The notes below the pieces were generated by a model. The model saw only the letters and a program-made list of their open reading frames with translations. It did not search any database and had not been told where the DNA came from. This document shows positions 14,564 to 24,412 of a DNA stretch of 64,000 nucleotides, piece by piece (position 1 is the stretch's first letter; the number at the start of each line of letters is the position of its first letter). The stretch is from Coriobacteriales bacterium (GTDB lineage Bacteria; Actinomycetota; Coriobacteriia; Coriobacteriales; UBA8131). The DNA lies in contig JAITRZ010000003.1 of the NCBI GenBank assembly GCA_031288185.1, positions 98 to 64,097 on the forward strand, in the 5' to 3' direction. A program made the position numbers and the translations under genes.

Positions 14564-14677
14564 TGCTATCGTTATACTGCCAGAAACAGTGATCCCAGAA
14601 GTTGGAGGCGTGCGGCTGTGACGTTAGCGCCCTTTCCAATGATGCTGGAAAATAGATCTTAGAAGTTGGAGGTGTGT

Positions 14678-15049
14678 GTGACGGAAAGCCCAGAGTCCAA
14701 ACACCTGGCGTTGCTGGCGGCTGAGGCCGCTGAATCCAAGAAAGCCAGCGATGTGTTGATAATTGATGTGAAGCCTACCTTGGCGATAGTTGATTACTTT
14801 ATCATTGCCACGGCACCCACCGGCCGTCACTTGTCTGCCATTGCCGAGGCCATCGAGGAGCGCCTGCGCGAAGAAGCCGGCCGTAAACCTTTAGGAAGGG
14901 AGGGCATGGAATGGCTTAACTGGATACTCTTGGATTACGGAGACATTGTTGTTCATCTCTTCCTGCCGCAGGTGCGGGAGTTCTATCGCCTGGAAAATCT
15001 GTTTAATGATGCCACCTTCTTGCGCTTGCCCCATGGGGCGCACGAGTGA
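14678..15049 (+). CDS. rsfS: Ribosome silencing factor RsfS
   Basis: 'DYFIIATAPTGRHLSAIAEAIEE...WILLDYGDIVVHLFLPQVREFYRLENLF' fits the RsfS/Iojap family. GGAGG precedes GTG at 14678; the ORF track starts at TTG 14666. Confidence 0.85.
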   Translation: MTESPESKHLALLAAEAAESKKASDVLIIDVKPTLAIVDYFIIATAPTGRHLSAIAEAIEERLREEAGRKPLGREGMEWLNWILLDYGDIVVHLFLPQVREFYRLENLFNDATFLRLPHGAHE

Positions 15050-18670: not shown

Positions 18671-18774
18671 AGCCGCAACGTATCGTCAGCCGGCGTGTCA
18701 GTTGTTGGGCAATCATTAAGGATTACGCCACCAAATCTGAGCCGCAACGTATCGTCAGCCGGCGTGTCAGTTGT
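18671..18774. repeat. Perfect 35-bp direct repeat, 69-bp period
   Basis: agccgcaacgtatcgtcagccggcgtgtcagttgt occurs at 18671-18705 and again at 18740-18774, between the EF-G-paralog stop and the VIT1 start. Confidence 0.9.
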
Positions 18775-18777
18775 GCC

Positions 18778-20892
18778 TTACTTATGACCTTCCTCACGGC
18801 GACTCTGATAATCTGCTATCAGTTTTTTTGACACCTCTTTAGGAATTTCTTCATATCCCTCCACCTCTATCCGGTAAGAACCGGCCCCTCTGGTCATGGA
18901 GCGCAGATCCCTGGCATAGGTGATGACTTCCTTGTAGGGCACGCGGGCTTTTATAACGGTGCGGCCAGCAGAGCTGGTGTCCATGCCGCCCACCCTTCCA
19001 CGCCGGGTGGAAAAATCCCCCATGATAACGCCGGCGAACTCTTCGCTCACCGTGACCTCTAAATTTGCCATAGGTTCAAGCAAATATACGTCGGCCTTGC
19101 TGCAGCCGTCCCGAAAGGCCAATCGCGCCGCCTGTCGAAAAGCCATTTCGTTGGAATCTACCGAGTGATAAGAGCCGTCATAGACCACGGCCTTGACATC
19201 CACAAAGGGATCATCGGTTAGATAGCCTTCATTCAGGGCTTCGCGCAATCCCTTGTCCACCGCTGGAATCAGGCCACGGGGAATGCGTCCGCCCACAACC
19301 TCGTCGCCAAATTCATAACCGCCACCGGGGTTTGGCTCCAGACGCACCCAGCACTCGCCAAACTGACCGGCGCCACCGGTTTGTTTCTTATGACGGCCAT
19401 GGCCCTCAGCAACCTTACGGATGGTTTCCCGGTAGGGCACCTTTACCTCCAGAAGCCGCGCCTCTACACCGCTGCGCTCCTTCAGGCGCGACAATAGCAG
19501 GTCTACGGCACCTTCTCCCAGAGTAAACAACAGGGTTTGGTGGGTCTGATCATTGCGGGTGAGCCTGACGCAGGGGTCAATCTCGGCTGATTTAGCTAAA
19601 AAATCCCCCAGTTTATCGTCGTCGTTTTTGCTGGCGGCTTCAATGGCCACCGGATACAGCGGTTCAGGCAGGGGCAGGGGAGCGATCTGCGCCTTGCCGT
19701 CGCGTGACAGCGTGTCGCCGGTGCGTACCTCATTTAGCTTGGGGATGACAACGATGTCACCGGCCCGGGCCGACTTAACGTCTTCGGTCTCCTTGCCGCA
19801 CATCACAAAGATATGAGCAAAACGCTCCTTTTTGCCATTGCGAGCGCAAATAAACTCCTGACCCGGCTCAATGATGCCGCTGAGCACCTTTACAAAACTC
19901 AAGCGCCCCACAAATGCATCAGAAACCGTCTTGAATACATAAAAGGCCGGCTCGCCGCTCTCATCTATGTGCAGCTCGCTGCCATCGGCTGCCGGAAAGG
20001 GCCCGTGGGCATCAGGGGCGGGAAAGTAACTGATAATGTCGTCCATGATTCCAAGGATGCCCTGTTCTACCAGGGTTGAGCCCACAAACACCGGAATAAA
20101 CAGTTCTTCTACGATGGCCTTACTCAACAGGCTTTCCAGTTCTTCCTGAGTTAGTTGCTCCTCGCCATCCAGATACTTCATCATCAGCTCGTCATCGGCT
20201 TCCGCCACCAGGTCACAGAGTTTGTCGCGGGCCGCCTGGGCGGCCTGGGCATACTCAGCAGGGATTTCCTCAACACGTTCCCTGTCGCCTGAGTGATAGT
20301 GGGCTTGCATACGAATGACGTCAATAACGCCCTTGAAATCCTTGTCTACCCCAATGGGGATGGTAACCGCTCCCACTCGATGACCAAAGCGCTGGATTAA
20401 TCCTGCCAAGGCGGCATCAAAGTTGGCATGTTCCCGGTCGATATGATTGATGAAAAAGGCGCGGCAGAGGTGTTCGCGGTCAGCCTCTTCCCACAGTTTG
20501 ACGGCTCCCACCTGCGGCCCGGCCACCGCGTCGATCACAAATAGGGCCAATTCTGCGGCGCTTAATGCCGCTATGGTCTCGCCTATGAAATCATCAGAGC
20601 CGGAGGTATCCAGGAGGTTGATCTTAAAACCCTTGTAATGGATGGGAGCTAACGAAGTTGTGATTGTAAAACCACGCTTGATCTCCTCAGGATCATAATC
20701 CAGGTTAGACTTGCCATCGTGGGTGGTGCCCAGCCGCGAAGTGCGTCCCGAAAGATGCAGCATCGCCTCGGCAAACGAGGTCTTGCCGGCGCCATCCTGG
20801 CCAACCAATACGATGTTGCGAACCTGCTCAGTAGCTGGTGCTGCCAATTTGATCACCCTTTCCTTGATACCCGCAGTTGCCACGGGTGTCAA
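18778..20892 (-). CDS. Elongation factor G paralog with non-canonical GTPase motifs
   Basis: 704 aa with EF-G five-domain architecture throughout. G1 is 'GQDGAGKTS'. G3 is 'DTSGSDDF' instead of DTPGHVDF. G4 is 'NHID' instead of NKxD. Confidence 0.85.
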   Translation of the reverse strand: MTPVATAGIKERVIKLAAPATEQVRNIVLVGQDGAGKTSFAEAMLHLSGRTSRLGTTHDGKSNLDYDPEEIKRGFTITTSLAPIHYKGFKINLLDTSGSDDFIGETIAALSAAELALFVIDAVAGPQVGAVKLWEEADREHLCRAFFINHIDREHANFDAALAGLIQRFGHRVGAVTIPIGVDKDFKGVIDVIRMQAHYHSGDRERVEEIPAEYAQAAQAARDKLCDLVAEADDELMMKYLDGEEQLTQEELESLLSKAIVEELFIPVFVGSTLVEQGILGIMDDIISYFPAPDAHGPFPAADGSELHIDESGEPAFYVFKTVSDAFVGRLSFVKVLSGIIEPGQEFICARNGKKERFAHIFVMCGKETEDVKSARAGDIVVIPKLNEVRTGDTLSRDGKAQIAPLPLPEPLYPVAIEAASKNDDDKLGDFLAKSAEIDPCVRLTRNDQTHQTLLFTLGEGAVDLLLSRLKERSGVEARLLEVKVPYRETIRKVAEGHGRHKKQTGGAGQFGECWVRLEPNPGGGYEFGDEVVGGRIPRGLIPAVDKGLREALNEGYLTDDPFVDVKAVVYDGSYHSVDSNEMAFRQAARLAFRDGCSKADVYLLEPMANLEVTVSEEFAGVIMGDFSTRRGRVGGMDTSSAGRTVIKARVPYKEVITYARDLRSMTRGAGSYRIEVEGYEEIPKEVSKKLIADYQSRREEGHK

Positions 20893-21117
20893 TGAGCACG
20901 GCGGTTGCCTGCTCTATCCGCGAACCTGTCCAATCCTGGCAAGAGCCACTCACGCACGCAAACCACTATAGCAAATCTGCCCCTGCCAGGGAGCAGCCAC
21001 CAGAAAACATGACCACCCTTGCCATTGAGCGGTGCTTTTTCAAGGCGAGACACGAAAAGCGCGAGCATCCGATTGATGGTTTTAGGCCGTGAGGTGAAAA
21101 ACGCCGGCGGGTAATGG

Positions 21118-21151
21118 GTGGATGATGCCTGCCGAGTGGATGATGCCTGCC
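21118..21151. repeat. 16-bp direct repeat x2 (gtggatgatgcctgcc), 18-bp period
   Basis: Copies at 21118-21133 and 21136-21151, followed by the hairpin CCTGCC-N9-GGCAGG. Confidence 0.85.
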
Positions 21152-21177
21152 TCACCCCTGGGCAGGACACAGGGCTC

Positions 21178-21255
21178 AATGCCAGGCCCCATCCTTATCC
21201 ACACCGCCCTCAGTGTGGGGCCCCGCCATCCTAATGCCAGGCCCTATCCTTATCC
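21178..21255. repeat. 23-bp direct repeat x2 (aatgccaggcccYatccttatcc), 55-bp period, abutting a TATAAT box
   Basis: Copies at 21178-21200 and 21233-21255, with one mismatch. TATAAT lies at 21258-21263, 45 nt upstream of the ileS start. Confidence 0.85.
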
Positions 21256-21307: not shown

Positions 21308-24300
21308 TTGTCACAGGACTACAAATCAACCATGAATCTGCCCCAAACCGCCTTTCCAATGCGCGCGGGGCTGGCCAAAAGCGAGCCGCTACGCTTGCGC
21401 AAATGGCAAGAGCTGGACGTCTATCACCAGCTTCTGGCCCAAAACCAGGGCCAGCCCAGCTACATCCTGCATGACGGGCCGCCCTACGCCAATGGACCCC
21501 TACATATGGGCCATGCCTTTAACAAGGTGCTCAAGGACATCATTGTTCGCTACAAATCTCAATGTGGTTTTTATGCGCCCTTTGTGCCCGGCTGGGACTG
21601 TCATGGGCAGCCCATTGAGCATATGGTTGAGGCTACCTTGGGCCCGAAAAAGACGGCGGCCATCGATCAGGTAACCCTGCGGCGCCTCTGCCGCGAGTGG
21701 GCGGAAAAATACGTTAATATACAACGCGCCGGTTTTGTGCGCTTGGGTGTGATGGGAGAGTGGGATGATCCCTACTTAACCTATGCGCCCACCTATGAAG
21801 CCGGTAATGTACAAGTTTTTCAGCAACTTTATGAAGCCGGCGCCATCTATCACGGACGCAAGCCCATCCACTGGTGCCCCCATTGCCACACCGCCCTGGC
21901 CGAAGCCGAGATCGAGTATGCAGACATCGAATCACCGGCTATCTATGTGGCGTTCAAGATTGTCTCAGACGACGCGCTGGCAGCGCGGCTGCTGGCCTCA
22001 CAACCGGCATCAGGCGCTGACATTCTGGCCAATCTTTCCATCCTCATCTGGACTACCACACCCTGGACCCTGCCTGCCAACAGCGCTGTGGCCCTGTCCG
22101 CCACGGCTGACTACCTCCTCATCAAGGCAGCAGGCAGGTATCTGTTTTTGGCTGAAGAGCTGCTTGAGCAGGTCTTTCAGGACATTGAGCTGCCTGATTA
22201 TCAACTGGTGCGCGATGCCAAAGGCGAGCCACTGAGCTTTAAGGGTGGCGATCTGGTGGGGATGCGCTACCATCATCCGATCCTTGCGGGGCTCTTTGGC
22301 CAGGTGGTAACCGGAGCCCATGTGGATTTGTCAACGGGTACCGGAGCAGTACATACCGCCCCTGGCCACGGGCTGGAAGACTACCAGGTAGGGTTGGAGT
22401 ATGACCTACCGCTGCTGATGCCTGTTGACGATAACGGCGTGTTTGATGCGGGCGGCGGGCCCTTTGCGGGCATGGATGTACGCTCGGCAAACCCTCACAT
22501 CATCAAATGGTTGTCTCAGCGTGGCACCCTGCTGGGTTATCGGCCGCTGACGCATGCCTATCCCCATTGCTGGCGCTGCCACCATCCGGTTATCTTTCGC
22601 GCCACCTTTCAGTGGTTTGTGTCCATGGACGCTACGGGGCTACTGGCCAAGGCACTGGCGGCGACTGGCACCATTGGATGGTATCCTAGCTGGGCCGTTA
22701 ATCGTATGCGAGCCATGCTGGAGGGCAGGCCGGATTGGTGTATATCGCGGCAGCGCTCCTGGGGTGTACCCATTCCGGTTTTTACCTGCTCGCATTGTGG
22801 GCAGACGGTGGCTGACAGCACGACCTTTGCCGCTGTTATCGCCCTGTTTGAGCGCGAAGGCTCAGACGGTTGGTTTAAGTACGCTCCCTATGAGTATCTG
22901 CCTGCCAGCGTGCATTGCCAAAACTGCGGCGCTGACGCGCGCGCCCTTACGCCCGACAAGGATATCCTAGACGTTTGGTGGGAAAGCGGTGTGTCACATA
23001 CCAGCGTCCTGCGCGAGCGCGACTATCTTAGCGCACCCGCCGATCTGTACCTGGAGGGCTCTGATCAGCATCGCGGCTGGTTTCAAAGCGCGCTCCTAAC
23101 CAGTGTGGGGGCCTATGGGGTGGCCCCGTATCACGCTATCATGAGCTGTGGATTCATCGTTGATGGCCAGGGCTATAAAATGTCCAAATCTCGCGGCAAT
23201 ATAATTGCCCCTGACCAGATCATTGAGGAGTTTGGCGCTGACGTGCTGCGCCTGTGGGTGGGCTCTATCGATTATGGTACCGACGCGAGTATAGACGCAG
23301 AGATACTGCAGCGCAGCGCTGAAGCCTACCGTCGGATTCGCAATAGCTTCAGATTTTTACTCTCCAACCTGTATGATTTTGACAGTAATATTAACACTTT
23401 AGACTATGACGACCTGCTGGCCCTGGATCGCTGGGCCCTGGCACGGCTTGCCGAGTTGCTCACCAAGGTCAACGATGCCTACGCCTCCTTCCGCTTTCAT
23501 GTGGCCTATCACGCCATCTACGACTATATCGTTAAGGATCTTTCCGCCATCTATCTGGACGCCTTAAAAGACCGTTTGTATTCAGAGGCTGCGGCCTCGC
23601 CGCGCCGGCGCAGCGCACAAACCGTGCTAGCAAACATCCTGGAGGCCCTGGCGCGGGTATTGGCACCCATCCTCTGTTTTACCTGTGATGAGGTCTGGGA
23701 AAACTATCCCTTGGGTATGCGCAACGGTGGTCAGCTCCAGGCAGACAGTCAAATGTCAGCAAACAGCCACGCTCCTATCGCCGGCGACCAAACGCTGGCA
23801 GACCGGCGGGCGCAGGCGGTGGTGCTGGCAGGCTGGTGTACGCCTGAGCAACTGCGGCCCGCTGTGTCTGTGGACAATGCCGAGGCCCTGAGCGCGGATT
23901 TTGTCCTGGTTCTGGCCGCGCGTGAAGCAGTCAATCGCGCCCTGGAACAGGCCCGTGGTGCTGGCGTCATTGGCAAAAGCCAGGAGGCGTGTGTACTGAT
24001 AAGCGCCGCTGATGAGGTCATCCAGACACTGAAAAAGCAAGAAGCCGGACTTTTGGAAGAATTGCTCATTGTGGCTGAGGTCAAACTGAGGCCCTTTGAC
24101 GCAGCTGAGAGCATGCAGGCTGCCCATGACGATGCCCCTCCCGCGTGTTCGTGTGCCGCACCGTCGCAAGACGCGGGCGCTGACACCGAGAAGCCGCGCG
24201 ACTTGGGCGCTGACACGACACCGTCGCAAGACGCGGGCACCGACACGTATAGTGACAGCAGCGCTGTTATCGGCGCTCATACTGCGGTACTCACCGTTAG

Positions 24301-24412
24301 TCGGGCGCCCGGTCAAAAGTGCGCGCGCTGCTGGAATATCCGCACATTGGGATCAGACCCTGATTATCCTGACCTCTGCGCGCGTTGCGTCGCAGTGCTC
24401 AGACAGTTGTAA
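21308..24412 (+). CDS. ileS: Isoleucine--tRNA ligase
   Basis: 'DYKSTMNLPQTAFPMRAGL' start, HIGH motif 'PYANGPLHMGHAFN', KMSKS motif 'YKMSKSRGN', and a C-terminal zinc motif 'CARCWN...CARC'. 1034 aa. Confidence 0.95.
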   Translation: MSQDYKSTMNLPQTAFPMRAGLAKSEPLRLRKWQELDVYHQLLAQNQGQPSYILHDGPPYANGPLHMGHAFNKVLKDIIVRYKSQCGFYAPFVPGWDCHGQPIEHMVEATLGPKKTAAIDQVTLRRLCREWAEKYVNIQRAGFVRLGVMGEWDDPYLTYAPTYEAGNVQVFQQLYEAGAIYHGRKPIHWCPHCHTALAEAEIEYADIESPAIYVAFKIVSDDALAARLLASQPASGADILANLSILIWTTTPWTLPANSAVALSATADYLLIKAAGRYLFLAEELLEQVFQDIELPDYQLVRDAKGEPLSFKGGDLVGMRYHHPILAGLFGQVVTGAHVDLSTGTGAVHTAPGHGLEDYQVGLEYDLPLLMPVDDNGVFDAGGGPFAGMDVRSANPHIIKWLSQRGTLLGYRPLTHAYPHCWRCHHPVIFRATFQWFVSMDATGLLAKALAATGTIGWYPSWAVNRMRAMLEGRPDWCISRQRSWGVPIPVFTCSHCGQTVADSTTFAAVIALFEREGSDGWFKYAPYEYLPASVHCQNCGADARALTPDKDILDVWWESGVSHTSVLRERDYLSAPADLYLEGSDQHRGWFQSALLTSVGAYGVAPYHAIMSCGFIVDGQGYKMSKSRGNIIAPDQIIEEFGADVLRLWVGSIDYGTDASIDAEILQRSAEAYRRIRNSFRFLLSNLYDFDSNINTLDYDDLLALDRWALARLAELLTKVNDAYASFRFHVAYHAIYDYIVKDLSAIYLDALKDRLYSEAAASPRRRSAQTVLANILEALARVLAPILCFTCDEVWENYPLGMRNGGQLQADSQMSANSHAPIAGDQTLADRRAQAVVLAGWCTPEQLRPAVSVDNAEALSADFVLVLAAREAVNRALEQARGAGVIGKSQEACVLISAADEVIQTLKKQEAGLLEELLIVAEVKLRPFDAAESMQAAHDDAPPACSCAAPSQDAGADTEKPRDLGADTTPSQDAGTDTYSDSSAVIGAHTAVLTVSRAPGQKCARCWNIRTLGSDPDYPDLCARCVAVLRQL
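24159..24246. repeat. 28-bp direct repeat x2 within the ileS C-terminal insert, 60-bp period
   Basis: caccgtcgcaagacgcgggcgctgacac at 24159-24186 and caccgtcgcaagacgcgggcaccgacac at 24219-24246. They encode the repeated 'PSQDAG(A/T)DT'. Confidence 0.85.

What the first reader, a model, noticed from the sequence alone, without database searches (positions are those of the whole stretch)
18778..20892. EF-G paralog lacking the catalytic histidine and with an altered G4 box (likely non-canonical or inactive GTPase)
The protein aligns over its whole length with EF-G. However, G3 reads DTSGSDDF where translational GTPases have DTPGHxDF, so the His that activates the hydrolytic water is replaced by Ser. 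G4 reads NHID instead of NKxD, so the Lys that contributes to guanine specificity is replaced by His. G1 (GQDGAGKTS) is also atypical. The gene is not in the str operon context. It sits alone between ileS (divergent) and a metal transporter. It could be a ribosome-binding factor that works without ribosome-stimulated GTP hydrolysis, or one with altered nucleotide preference.
Basis: partly seen in the sequence, partly recalled or inferred. Interest (0 to 1): 0.55.

Follow-up and report, generated by a model that had tools for sequence, protein, structure and literature searches.

The report
EFG II-type second EF-G, Coriobacteriales variant
This gene is an intact second copy of the ribosome-moving factor EF-G from the already described "EFG II / EF-G2" family, in which the GTP-splitting histidine is normally missing, so it is an ordinary though locally unusual member of a known group.

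Summary
The minus-strand gene at 18778-20892 (likely start TTG at 20847, 689 aa) encodes a five-domain EF-G homologue. Its motifs are G1 GQDGAGKTS, G2 RGFTI, G3 DTSGSDDF (Ser at the catalytic His position), G4 NHID and G5 GST. The same genome, an uncultured Coriobacteriales MAG, has a canonical fusA in rpsL-rpsG-fusA-rpsJ.

The interpretation needs one correction. The gene belongs to the known EFG II / EF-G2 subfamily (Margus 2011). In that subfamily only 3 of 134 representatives keep the His (Tyr or Phe is usual), and the G4 Lys also varies. A maximum-likelihood tree puts it on the EFG II side (100/100). An AU test rejects a class-specific duplication of fusA (p = 9e-39).

The paralog occurs in about 112 of 121 Coriobacteriia genomes sampled. 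Specific to the window's clade are the GQDG P-loop, Pro to Ser in DxPG, and NHID. These are fixed in about 110 homologues, and the G domain has the lowest dN together with domain IV.

By analogy with M. smegmatis and Bacteroides EF-G2, it most likely binds GTP and the ribosome but hydrolyses GTP poorly.

First readers of this scan noted the same motifs in several other genomes (e.g. e1-4845118). Interest is low to moderate.

The parts
18778..20892 (-). Open reading frame of the EF-G paralog as listed (704 codons from the first TTG). The likely translated gene is 18778-20847 (689 aa).
   Evidence: For the start.
20845..20847 (-). Most likely start codon (TTG, residue 16 of the ORF). The Shine-Dalgarno-like AAGGAAAGG lies at 20857-20865, 9 nt upstream.
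   Evidence: Sequence read and coordinates checked. The Slackia-type homologue P0122 aligns from query residue 16. Residues 1-15 have pLDDT below 50. In several relatives there are stop codons upstream of about residue 10.
20776..20802 (-). G1 / P-loop GQDGAGKTS (canonical AHIDAGKTT). It has the Gly at position 1 typical of EFG II. Gln-Asp at positions 2-3 is specific to this clade.
20662..20676 (-). G2 / switch I RGFTI (canonical RGITI). Arg, Gly and the Mg-binding Thr are kept.
20587..20610 (-). G3 / switch II DTSGSDDF. Pro is replaced by Ser within DxPG, and Ser99 (20596-20598) stands at the catalytic His position.
20437..20448 (-). G4 NHID (canonical NKxD). The Asn and the guanine-specifying Asp are kept, and Lys is replaced by His.
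20074..20082 (-). G5 G-S-T (canonical G-S-A).
19357..19398 (-). Domain IV tip loop 1, GRHKKQTGGAGQFG. It is near-invariant across all Coriobacteriia paralogs and EF-G-like.
19141..19173 (-). Domain IV tip loop 2, SYHSVDSNEMA. It carries the conserved His of the EF-G domain IV tip.
20965..20973 (-). Candidate extended -10 promoter element TGcTATAGT, about 118 nt upstream of the likely start. This is a consensus resemblance only.
   Evidence: Read by eye. It is not among the two-hexamer matches. Inference only.

Best explanation
The gene encodes an EFG II (EF-G2-type) paralog of elongation factor G. It was inherited vertically within the class Coriobacteriia and sits alongside the canonical, str-operon fusA.

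Shown: it has the complete five-domain EF-G fold, including the G' subdomain and the domain IV tip loops. It keeps the residues that bind nucleotide and Mg2+: the P-loop GKT/S, the switch I Thr, the G3 Asp and Gly, and the G4 Asn and Asp. It lacks the switch II His and the P-loop His-Ile-Asp, which in canonical EF-G are reported to contact the sarcin-ricin loop.

Inferred: it still binds GTP and docks into the ribosomal factor site with domain IV in the A site, but the ribosome activates its GTP hydrolysis poorly or not at all. It would then act as an auxiliary, slow or energy-sparing translocase, or as a factor that holds ribosomes, during nutrient limitation or stress. This follows what is reported for Bacteroides and mycobacterial EF-G2. 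It is not the housekeeping translocase.
For: - **Family placement.** In the careful ML tree (LG+G4, 54 rows), EFG I is monophyletic at 100/100 and includes the Coriobacteriia's own fusA. The window protein lies on the other side with all EFG II sequences, inside a 100/100 Coriobacteriia clade (quick tree). The AU test rejects joining Coriobacteriia fusA with the paralogs (lnL difference 284, p = 9e-39).
- **Shared EFG II characters.** It has Gly at P-loop position 1 and a hydrophobic residue after GKT[ST]. Other Coriobacteriia orders keep GHGGAGKTSL and DTPGYADF, identical to the general EFG II consensus. Margus 2011 (PMC3150367) defines these traits.
- **Canonical fusA elsewhere.** TIGR00484 scores 1134 bits on contig C66, in the order rpsL-rpsG-fusA-rpsJ-rplC-rplD, with AHIDAGKTT, DTPGHVDF and NKMD.
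- **Distribution.** The paralog was found in about 112 of 121 Coriobacteriia genomes sampled and in 31 of 34 genomes of the window's own family.
- **Selection.** dN against family relatives is lowest in the G domain (0.085-0.24) and domain IV (0.08-0.16). Omega is 0.04-0.2 per domain (0.045-0.075 over the whole gene), where dS is not saturated.
- **Fold.** The AlphaFold model has mean pLDDT 89.4 and pTM 0.83. TM-scores are 0.90 to ribosome-bound EF-G (7N2V), 0.86 to M. smegmatis EF-G2 (9K0Z) and 0.84 to B. thetaiotaomicron EF-G2 (8DMF).
- **Function by analogy.** M. smegmatis EF-G2 has Tyr at the His position and an altered P-loop. It shows minimal ribosome-dependent GTPase and has a stress-related role, and H88Y in EF-G1 abolishes GTPase (bioRxiv 10.64898/2026.05.25.727771). 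Bacteroides EF-G2 translocates without GTP hydrolysis (Han 2023, cited in PMC12775393 and PMC12172202). E. coli EF-G H92A still translocates but is released very slowly (PMC12775393).
Against: - There is no biochemical data for any Coriobacteriia member. None was found in the papers searched.
- T. thermophilus EF-G-2, also an EFG II member, is reported to have ribosome-dependent and intrinsic GTPase and translocation activity. Family membership alone therefore does not prove an inactive GTPase.
- The G2 motif here (RGFTI) is closer to canonical than in most EFG II proteins.
- About half of the sister family's sequences carry His or Gln at the catalytic position, which could support hydrolysis there.
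- The curated EF-G2 models are not met (NF009377 591 against a cut-off of 890; NF058620 517 against 1000).
- The base of EFG II is an unresolved polytomy, so the nearest sister group is unknown.
Confidence: 0.8

Rival explanations
1. It is a catalytically competent GTPase that uses a different route to hydrolysis. This could be intrinsic hydrolysis, or help from the clade-specific P-loop Asp33 or His150. It would then work as a true alternative translocase or recycling factor that consumes GTP.
For: T. thermophilus EF-G-2 (EFG II) is reported to have ribosome-dependent and higher intrinsic GTPase plus poly(Phe) activity. The G domain here is under strong purifying selection. All nucleotide and Mg ligands are kept, along with a near-canonical RGFTI. 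The C-terminal helix is full length, unlike the shortened one described for M. smegmatis EF-G2.
Against: The catalytic position is Ser, Ala or Val in the window's family and His or Gln in the sister family. It is therefore not held to one chemistry. The P-loop His-Ile-Asp, reported to contact the sarcin-ricin loop, is replaced. H-to-A or H-to-Y mutants of canonical EF-G are severely impaired.
Confidence: 0.2
2. The remodelled pocket (NHID, GST, GQDG) changes nucleotide preference, for example towards ATP, XTP or (p)ppGpp. The factor would then read a different metabolic signal.
For: The G4 Lys is His in all clade members. A sub-lineage has NHIN, NQIN or NHIE, in which the guanine-specifying Asp is also changed. 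G5 Ala is replaced by Thr.
Against: The window protein keeps the G4 Asn and Asp that specify guanine. Lys to His, Arg, Gln or Gly at this position occurs sporadically across EFG II and in high-scoring actinobacterial EF-G2 (THLE/THLD).
Confidence: 0.1
3. It is a recent, lineage-specific duplicate of fusA that is losing function, that is, a decaying or pseudo-GTPase copy.
For: It scores higher to T. thermophilus EF-G (492 bits) than to EF-G-2 1WDT (412 bits). The first constrained search did not reject a position next to EFG I.
Against: EFG I monophyly, including Coriobacteriia fusA, has 100/100 support. The AU test rejects the class-specific duplication (p = 9e-39). The frame is intact in nearly every genome of the class. 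dN is low throughout. The result is explained by the basal polytomy of EFG II and the short quick search.
Confidence: 0.01
4. It is a ribosomal protection protein of the Tet(M)/Tet(O)/Otr(A) kind that confers antibiotic resistance.
For: It has the same overall domain architecture. There are weak hits to tet_protect models.
Against: NF012153 scores 250 bits against a cut-off of 775, and the other Tet models score lower still. The domain IV loops are EF-G-like. The gene is inherited vertically across a whole class, with native base composition (55.3% against 55.9% G+C) and no mobile-element context.
Confidence: 0.03

Closest known systems
EFG II subfamily of EF-G paralogs (Margus, Remm & Tenson 2011, PMC3150367; 'EFGII' in Atkinson 2015, PMC4342817)
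   Same: It falls on the EFG II side of the EFG I / EFG II split (100/100). It is always accompanied by an EFG I. It has Gly at P-loop position 1, a hydrophobic residue after GKT[ST], no catalytic His, a divergent G domain, and conserved domain IV and G'.
   Different: The G3 Pro is Ser (133 of 134 other EFG II representatives keep Pro). The P-loop reads GQDG rather than GHGG. G4 is NHID. G2 keeps Thr and is almost canonical (RGFTI), where EFG II usually has xxxSx. The residue after GKTS is Phe rather than the 99%-conserved Leu.
Mycobacterium smegmatis EF-G2 (fusA2; PDB 9K0Z/9K10; NCBIfam NF009377)
   Same: It comes from the same phylum and the same subfamily. The catalytic His is replaced, the SRL-contacting P-loop residues are replaced, and G4 is altered. 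The model superposes at TM 0.86.
   Different: NF009377 scores 591 bits against a cut-off of 890. It forms a separate clade from the other Actinomycetota EF-G2. The mycobacterial protein has Tyr, QQRSV in G2 and TKLD in G4, and a shorter C-terminal helix. The window protein has Ser, RGFTI, NHID and a full-length C-terminus.
Bacteroides thetaiotaomicron EF-G2 (PDB 7UVP/8DMF; NCBIfam NF058620; Han et al. 2023)
   Same: It is a second EF-G of a gut anaerobe. It is reported to translocate slowly without GTP hydrolysis and to be induced by carbon starvation. TM is 0.84.
   Different: NF058620 scores 517 bits against a cut-off of 1000, and the match covers only residues 21-521 in its best stretch. 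The window protein is shorter, about 689 aa against 718. It comes from a different phylum and a different EFG II subgroup.
Canonical EF-G (EFG I; TIGR00484), e.g. T. thermophilus EF-G
   Same: The length and five-domain fold are the same. Identity is 35-39%. It has EF-G-type domain IV loops and an acidic G' helix.
   Different: TIGR00484 scores 569 bits against a cut-off of 659. It has no AHIDAGKTT, DTPGH or NKxD motif. It is not in the str operon. The true fusA is elsewhere in the genome.

Membership tests
EFG II / EF-G2 subfamily (Margus 2011) | Branches with EFG II, apart from a monophyletic EFG I, in a phylogeny of EF-G homologues | tested here: met
   The EFG I | rest split has 100/100 support, and 100% of bootstrap trees keep EFG I as one group. 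The quick tree gives 100. The AU test rejects joining the paralogs with Coriobacteriia fusA (p = 9e-39).
EFG II / EF-G2 subfamily (Margus 2011) | Always accompanied by another EF-G (EFG I) in the same genome | tested here: met
   Canonical fusA lies on contig C66 in the order rpsL-rpsG-fusA-rpsJ. Most Coriobacteriia genomes give two matches.
EFG II / EF-G2 subfamily (Margus 2011) | Type I position 16 (1WDT numbering): Gly instead of Ala as the first P-loop residue | tested here: met
   G31 of GQDGAGKTS aligns with the Ala of AHIDAGKTT. 114 of 134 EFG II representatives have Gly here.
EFG II / EF-G2 subfamily (Margus 2011) | Type I position 25: Leu directly after GKT[TS] (99% conserved) | tested here: inconclusive
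   The window has Phe (GKTSF). Most of its clade has Leu. Among 134 representatives the counts are L 110, V 8, I 7, F 6, M 3. The residue is hydrophobic as required, but it is not Leu.
EFG II / EF-G2 subfamily (Margus 2011) | Loss of the trGTPase RGITI consensus in G2, with Ser in place of Thr | tested here: not met
   The window reads RGFTI, with Arg, Gly and Thr kept. 28 of 134 EFG II representatives also keep Thr. So this is a majority trait of the subfamily rather than a strict one.
EFG II / EF-G2 subfamily (Margus 2011) | The remaining type I/II signature positions (291, 333, 352, loop 469-472, Leu264 in 1WDT numbering) | not tested
   No residue-level alignment to 1WDT could be obtained. 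It ranked too low to be printed.
Canonical EF-G (EFG I; TIGR00484 equivalog) | Score above the curated cut-off, plus AHIDAGKTT, DTPGHxDF and NKxD | tested here: not met
   The score is 569 bits against a cut-off of 659.4. The motifs differ. The genome's other copy scores 1134 bits.
Actinobacterial EF-G2 equivalog (NCBIfam NF009377) | Score above the curated cut-off of 890 bits | tested here: not met
   The score is 591 bits. Only 10 of 81 Actinomycetota genomes sampled exceed the cut-off. The scores fall in a continuum from 1235 down to about 590. That tally includes three unpublished genomes.
Bacteroidota EF-G2 (NCBIfam NF058620) | Score above the curated cut-off of 1000 bits | tested here: not met
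   The score is 517 bits. The best stretch covers only residues 21-521.
Tetracycline ribosomal protection proteins (NF012153 and relatives) | Score above the curated cut-off of 775 bits | tested here: not met
   The score is 250 bits.

The most novel reading that the evidence does not exclude
In the order Coriobacteriales the EF-G2 nucleotide pocket has been rebuilt, not merely relaxed, and then frozen by selection. One branch has the GQDG P-loop, DTSG and NHID. The sister branch has DAPC (the DxxG Gly replaced by Cys) and a G5 Cys. On this reading the proteins no longer work as GTP-hydrolysing switches. They would act as ribosome factors that are locked in one nucleotide state, or use a different nucleotide, or respond to redox state. 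That would be a mechanism not yet described for translational GTPases.
Probability: 0.12. Interest if true: 0.6.

Novelty: new member of a known kind. Interest (0 to 1): 0.27.

Why it matters
It matters mainly for annotation. Public records call these proteins simply "elongation factor G", because the broad NCBIfam model NF009381 is passed by both the true fusA and this paralog. A reader of the raw sequence is therefore repeatedly surprised by a "His-less EF-G".

Placing the gene in EFG II removes the surprise. It also shows that nearly all Coriobacteriia, including common human-gut genera such as Slackia and Raoultibacter (named), carry an EF-G2.

The remodelling of G1, G3 and G4 across the order, under purifying selection, offers a natural series of variants at the catalytic position (Tyr, His, Gln, Ser, Ala, and Gly to Cys). 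This series could be used to ask what EF-G2 proteins need their nucleotide pocket for. Transformation and shuttle-vector tools have been reported for Eggerthella lenta (PMC9734109 abstract).

Tried and rejected
1. **Conserved partner gene.** Other EF-G2 lineages noted in this scan have Fic, ankyrin or kinase partners, so I looked for one here. Loci of the sister family and other orders share none of the window's neighbours within 1.5 kb. The recurrent 'ORFs' were shadow frames of the EF-G2 gene itself. The ileS <-> EFG2 -> VIT1 -> CitMHS order is largely kept within the window's own family (ileS adjacent in 5 of 8 genomes, VIT1 in 4, CitMHS in 4). I read this as vertical inheritance, not as a functional link.
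2. **96-codon ORF at 20889-21179 (-).** It has no Pfam hit and lies over the promoter and 5' region. I treat it as spurious.
3. **Alignment to 1WDT.** I tried an EFG II-only profile (alignment A2) to obtain a printed alignment to T. thermophilus EF-G-2. Canonical EF-G still ranked first. I therefore make no claim about the residue at the His position in 1WDT.
4. **First AU test.** The constrained tree scored better than the quick free tree. This came from the short search and the basal polytomy. It was replaced by the careful tree and a sharper test.
5. **Spacer fold.** The 131-nt spacer after the stop codon does not fold better than shuffles (z = -0.62) and shows no minus-strand terminator.
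6. **Closed or missing resources.** Han et al. 2023 (PMC9841332) is not held, so it is cited only through papers that cite it.
7. **Literature.** No paper on a Coriobacteriia EF-G2 was found in the library.
Full report
**1. What is there**

The finding's coordinates hold a 704-codon open frame on the minus strand, 18778-20892. Pfam finds the complete EF-G architecture: GTP_EFTU, EF-G_D2 / GTP_EFTU_D2, EFG_III, EFG_IV and EFG_C.

A HMMER alignment to T. thermophilus EF-G runs from end to end (492 bits) and fixes the register of the G motifs:

| Motif | This protein | Canonical EF-G |
|---|---|---|
| G1 | GQDGAGKTS | AHIDAGKTT |
| G2 | RGFTI | RGITI |
| G3 | DTSGSDDF | DTPGHVDF |
| G4 | INHID | ANKMD |

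All motif coordinates were verified by translation.

The translated gene probably starts at the TTG at 20847, giving 689 aa. Four points support this:
- An AAGGAAAGG Shine-Dalgarno sequence lies 9 nt upstream.
- The closest 50%-cluster representative aligns from query residue 16.
- AlphaFold gives residues 1-15 a pLDDT below 50.
- Several relatives have a stop codon upstream of about residue 10.

G+C content is native: 55.3% for the gene against 55.9% for the window.

**2. Context**

ileS lies divergently upstream (21308-24412, +). A VIT1-family protein and a CitMHS transporter follow downstream on the same strand.

The genome is a 1.8-Mb, 89%-complete MAG. Its best protein hits carry the names Coriobacteriales and Coriobacteriia.

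The genome has a second, canonical EF-G on contig C66. That copy scores 1134 bits to TIGR00484 and has AHIDAGKTT, DTPGHVDF and NKMD. It sits in the order rpsL-rpsG-fusA-rpsJ-rplC-rplD. The refutation condition 'this is the only EF-G gene' therefore fails.

**3. Which family**

The curated models for canonical EF-G, actinobacterial EF-G2, Bacteroidota EF-G2 and Tet proteins are all missed. The only model passed is the broad NF009381 'elongation factor G', which the true fusA passes as well.

An exhaustive search of 1.84 billion cluster representatives shows a discrete clade. It has one full-length representative at 65% identity. After that there is a drop to proteins of 43% identity or less.

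Those next proteins carry GHxGxGKT[ST]L, a G2 ending in Ser, and DTPG[Y/F]xDF. These are the signature of the EFG II subfamily of Margus et al. 2011: Gly16, Leu25, a relaxed RGITI with Ser, and a divergent G domain (PMC3150367). Atkinson 2015 (PMC4342817) lists the same subfamily as EFGII.

Counts among 134 EFG II representatives:

| Position | Residues found |
|---|---|
| Catalytic His | Y 58, F 30, D 10, L 6, N 5, S 5, A 5, H 3 |
| G4 Lys | K 80, R 20, G 12, Q 9, M 5, H 3 |

**4. Phylogeny**

A quick tree of 82 sequences and a careful IQ-TREE analysis of 54 sequences (LG+G4, ultrafast bootstrap / SH-aLRT) agree on three points:
- EFG I is monophyletic (100/100) and contains the Coriobacteriia's own fusA.
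- Everything else, including the window protein, lies on the other side.
- The Coriobacteriia paralogs form one clade (100/100).

The base of EFG II is a polytomy. This explains why a first constrained search did not reject a position next to the EFG I branch.

The relevant alternative is a class-specific duplication of fusA. The AU test rejects it (lnL difference 284, p-AU = 9e-39).

Loci from three unpublished genomes (G121, G137, G165) were left out of all alignments and trees. These genomes enter only the tally.

**5. Distribution and evolution of the motifs**

The paralog was found in about 112 of 121 Coriobacteriia genomes sampled. Six near-complete genomes gave only the canonical copy. 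It was found in 31 of 34 genomes of the window's own family, and the three misses are 57-72% complete.

| Group | G1 | G3 | G4 | G5 |
|---|---|---|---|---|
| Other Coriobacteriia orders | GHGGAGKTSL | DTPGYADF | NR[ML]D (one NKLD, one NRVD) | GSA (one GSS, one ASA) |
| Window's family | GQDGAGKT[ST] | DTSG + Ser 52, Ala 9, Val 1 | NH[IV]D | GST |
| Sister family f2 (hits named Eggerthellaceae/Raoultibacter) | GQDGAGKT[ST] | DTSG + His 49, Gln 8 | NH[IV]D | GST |
| Families f3 and f4, same order | GQGGVGKT | DAPCYPDF | NRxD | GSC (three of 17 differ at the first two positions; Cys invariant) |

The motifs in other Coriobacteriia orders are ordinary EFG II motifs.

The domain IV tip loops (HKKQTGGAGQFG and SYHxVDSNEMA) stay almost invariant throughout. 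Within the family, dN is lowest in the G domain and in domain IV. Where dS is not saturated, omega is about 0.04-0.2 per domain and 0.045-0.075 over the whole gene. The derived G domain is therefore conserved and is not decaying.

**6. Structure**

An AlphaFold model built on a 67-sequence alignment is confident (mean pLDDT 89.4, pTM 0.83). It superposes on full-length EF-G structures:

| Structure | TM-score |
|---|---|
| Ribosome-bound E. coli EF-G, 7N2V | 0.90 |
| M. smegmatis EF-G2, 9K0Z | 0.86 |
| B. thetaiotaomicron EF-G2, 8DMF | 0.84 |
| T. thermophilus EF-G-2, 1WDT | 0.77-0.82 |

The fold confirms the family. It does not separate EFG I from EFG II.

**7. How it probably works**

Shown by the sequence:
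- The nucleotide and Mg ligands are kept: the P-loop Lys and Thr/Ser, the switch I Thr, the G3 Asp and Gly, the G4 Asn and Asp, and the G5 Ser.
- The acidic G' helix and the domain IV tips are kept.
- The switch II His is replaced.
- The P-loop His-Ile-Asp is replaced. A recent preprint describes these residues as contacting the sarcin-ricin loop.

From the literature:
- M. smegmatis EF-G2 (Tyr at the His position, altered P-loop) has minimal ribosome-dependent GTPase and cannot recycle ribosomes. It is proposed to trap post-translocation ribosomes under stress. H88Y in EF-G1 nearly abolishes GTPase (10.64898/2026.05.25.727771).
- Bacteroides EF-G2 is induced by carbon starvation and is cited as translocating without GTP hydrolysis.
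- E. coli EF-G H92A still translocates but is released very slowly (PMC12775393).

Inference: the window protein binds GTP and the ribosome and is poorly activated for hydrolysis. It serves as an auxiliary, slow or energy-sparing translocase, or as a ribosome-holding factor.

Caveat: T. thermophilus EF-G-2, also EFG II, is reported to be an active GTPase. Activity must therefore be measured and cannot be assumed.

**8. Comparison and novelty**

This is a member of a known kind. What I did not find described is the Coriobacteriales-specific set of changes: the GQDG P-loop, Pro to Ser in DxPG (133 of 134 other representatives keep Pro), and a fixed NHID. The sister clade's Gly to Cys in DxxG is also undescribed as far as I could find.

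First readers of this scan had already noted the same motif set in other genomes (e1-4845118, e1-5508528, e1-3881334, e1-2004390, e1-2189014). Follow-up agents on other EFG II genes reached the same family assignment (e1-1416523, e1-2733368, e1-5204548). I reached that assignment here from my own searches and trees.

**9. Verdict**

- Observation: confirmed.
- Interpretation: partly supported.
- Novelty: new member of a known kind.
- Interest: low to moderate.

Noticed in passing
Loci L072-L075, L081, L098-L105, L107-L109 (families f3 and f4 of the window's order): All 17 EF-G2 sequences examined in the sister clade read DAPCYPDF at G3, so the near-universal Gly of the DxxG motif is Cys. They also have Cys in place of the G5 Ala (G-S-C in 14 of 17), with G1 GQGGVGKT and G4 NRxD. 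The domain IV loops stay conserved. Two pocket cysteines in a translational GTPase paralog may deserve their own look.
   Followed up: partly
Homologues of P0001 (motif classes): A sub-lineage of about 8 sequences within the window's clade has G4 NHIN or NQIN. Three others have NHIE or NHVE. In these the guanine-specifying Asp is also changed, mostly together with G5 GSA or GSV instead of GST.
   Followed up: no
window 18671-18705 and 18740-18774: A perfect 35-bp direct repeat (69-bp period) fills the 131-bp spacer between the EF-G2 stop and the VIT1 gene start. The spacer RNA folds no better than shuffles, and no minus-strand terminator was found. EF-G2, VIT1 and CitMHS may therefore be co-transcribed.
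   Followed up: partly
window 20889-21179 (-): This 96-codon ORF overlaps the listed TTG start by 4 nt. It has no Pfam hit and lies over the likely promoter and 5' leader of the EF-G2 gene. It is probably not a gene.
   Followed up: partly
window 14666-15049 (+): An rsfS (ribosomal silencing factor) gene lies about 4 kb from the EF-G2 gene. It is also within a few kb of it in two of eight family relatives (L092, L097). This is probably coincidental synteny.
   Followed up: no
Loci L042, L044, L045 (Actinomycetota genomes with the highest NF009377 scores): These EF-G2 proteins have G4 THLE or THLD and an insertion in G5. So Lys to His at G4 has arisen independently in other actinobacterial EF-G2.
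   Followed up: no
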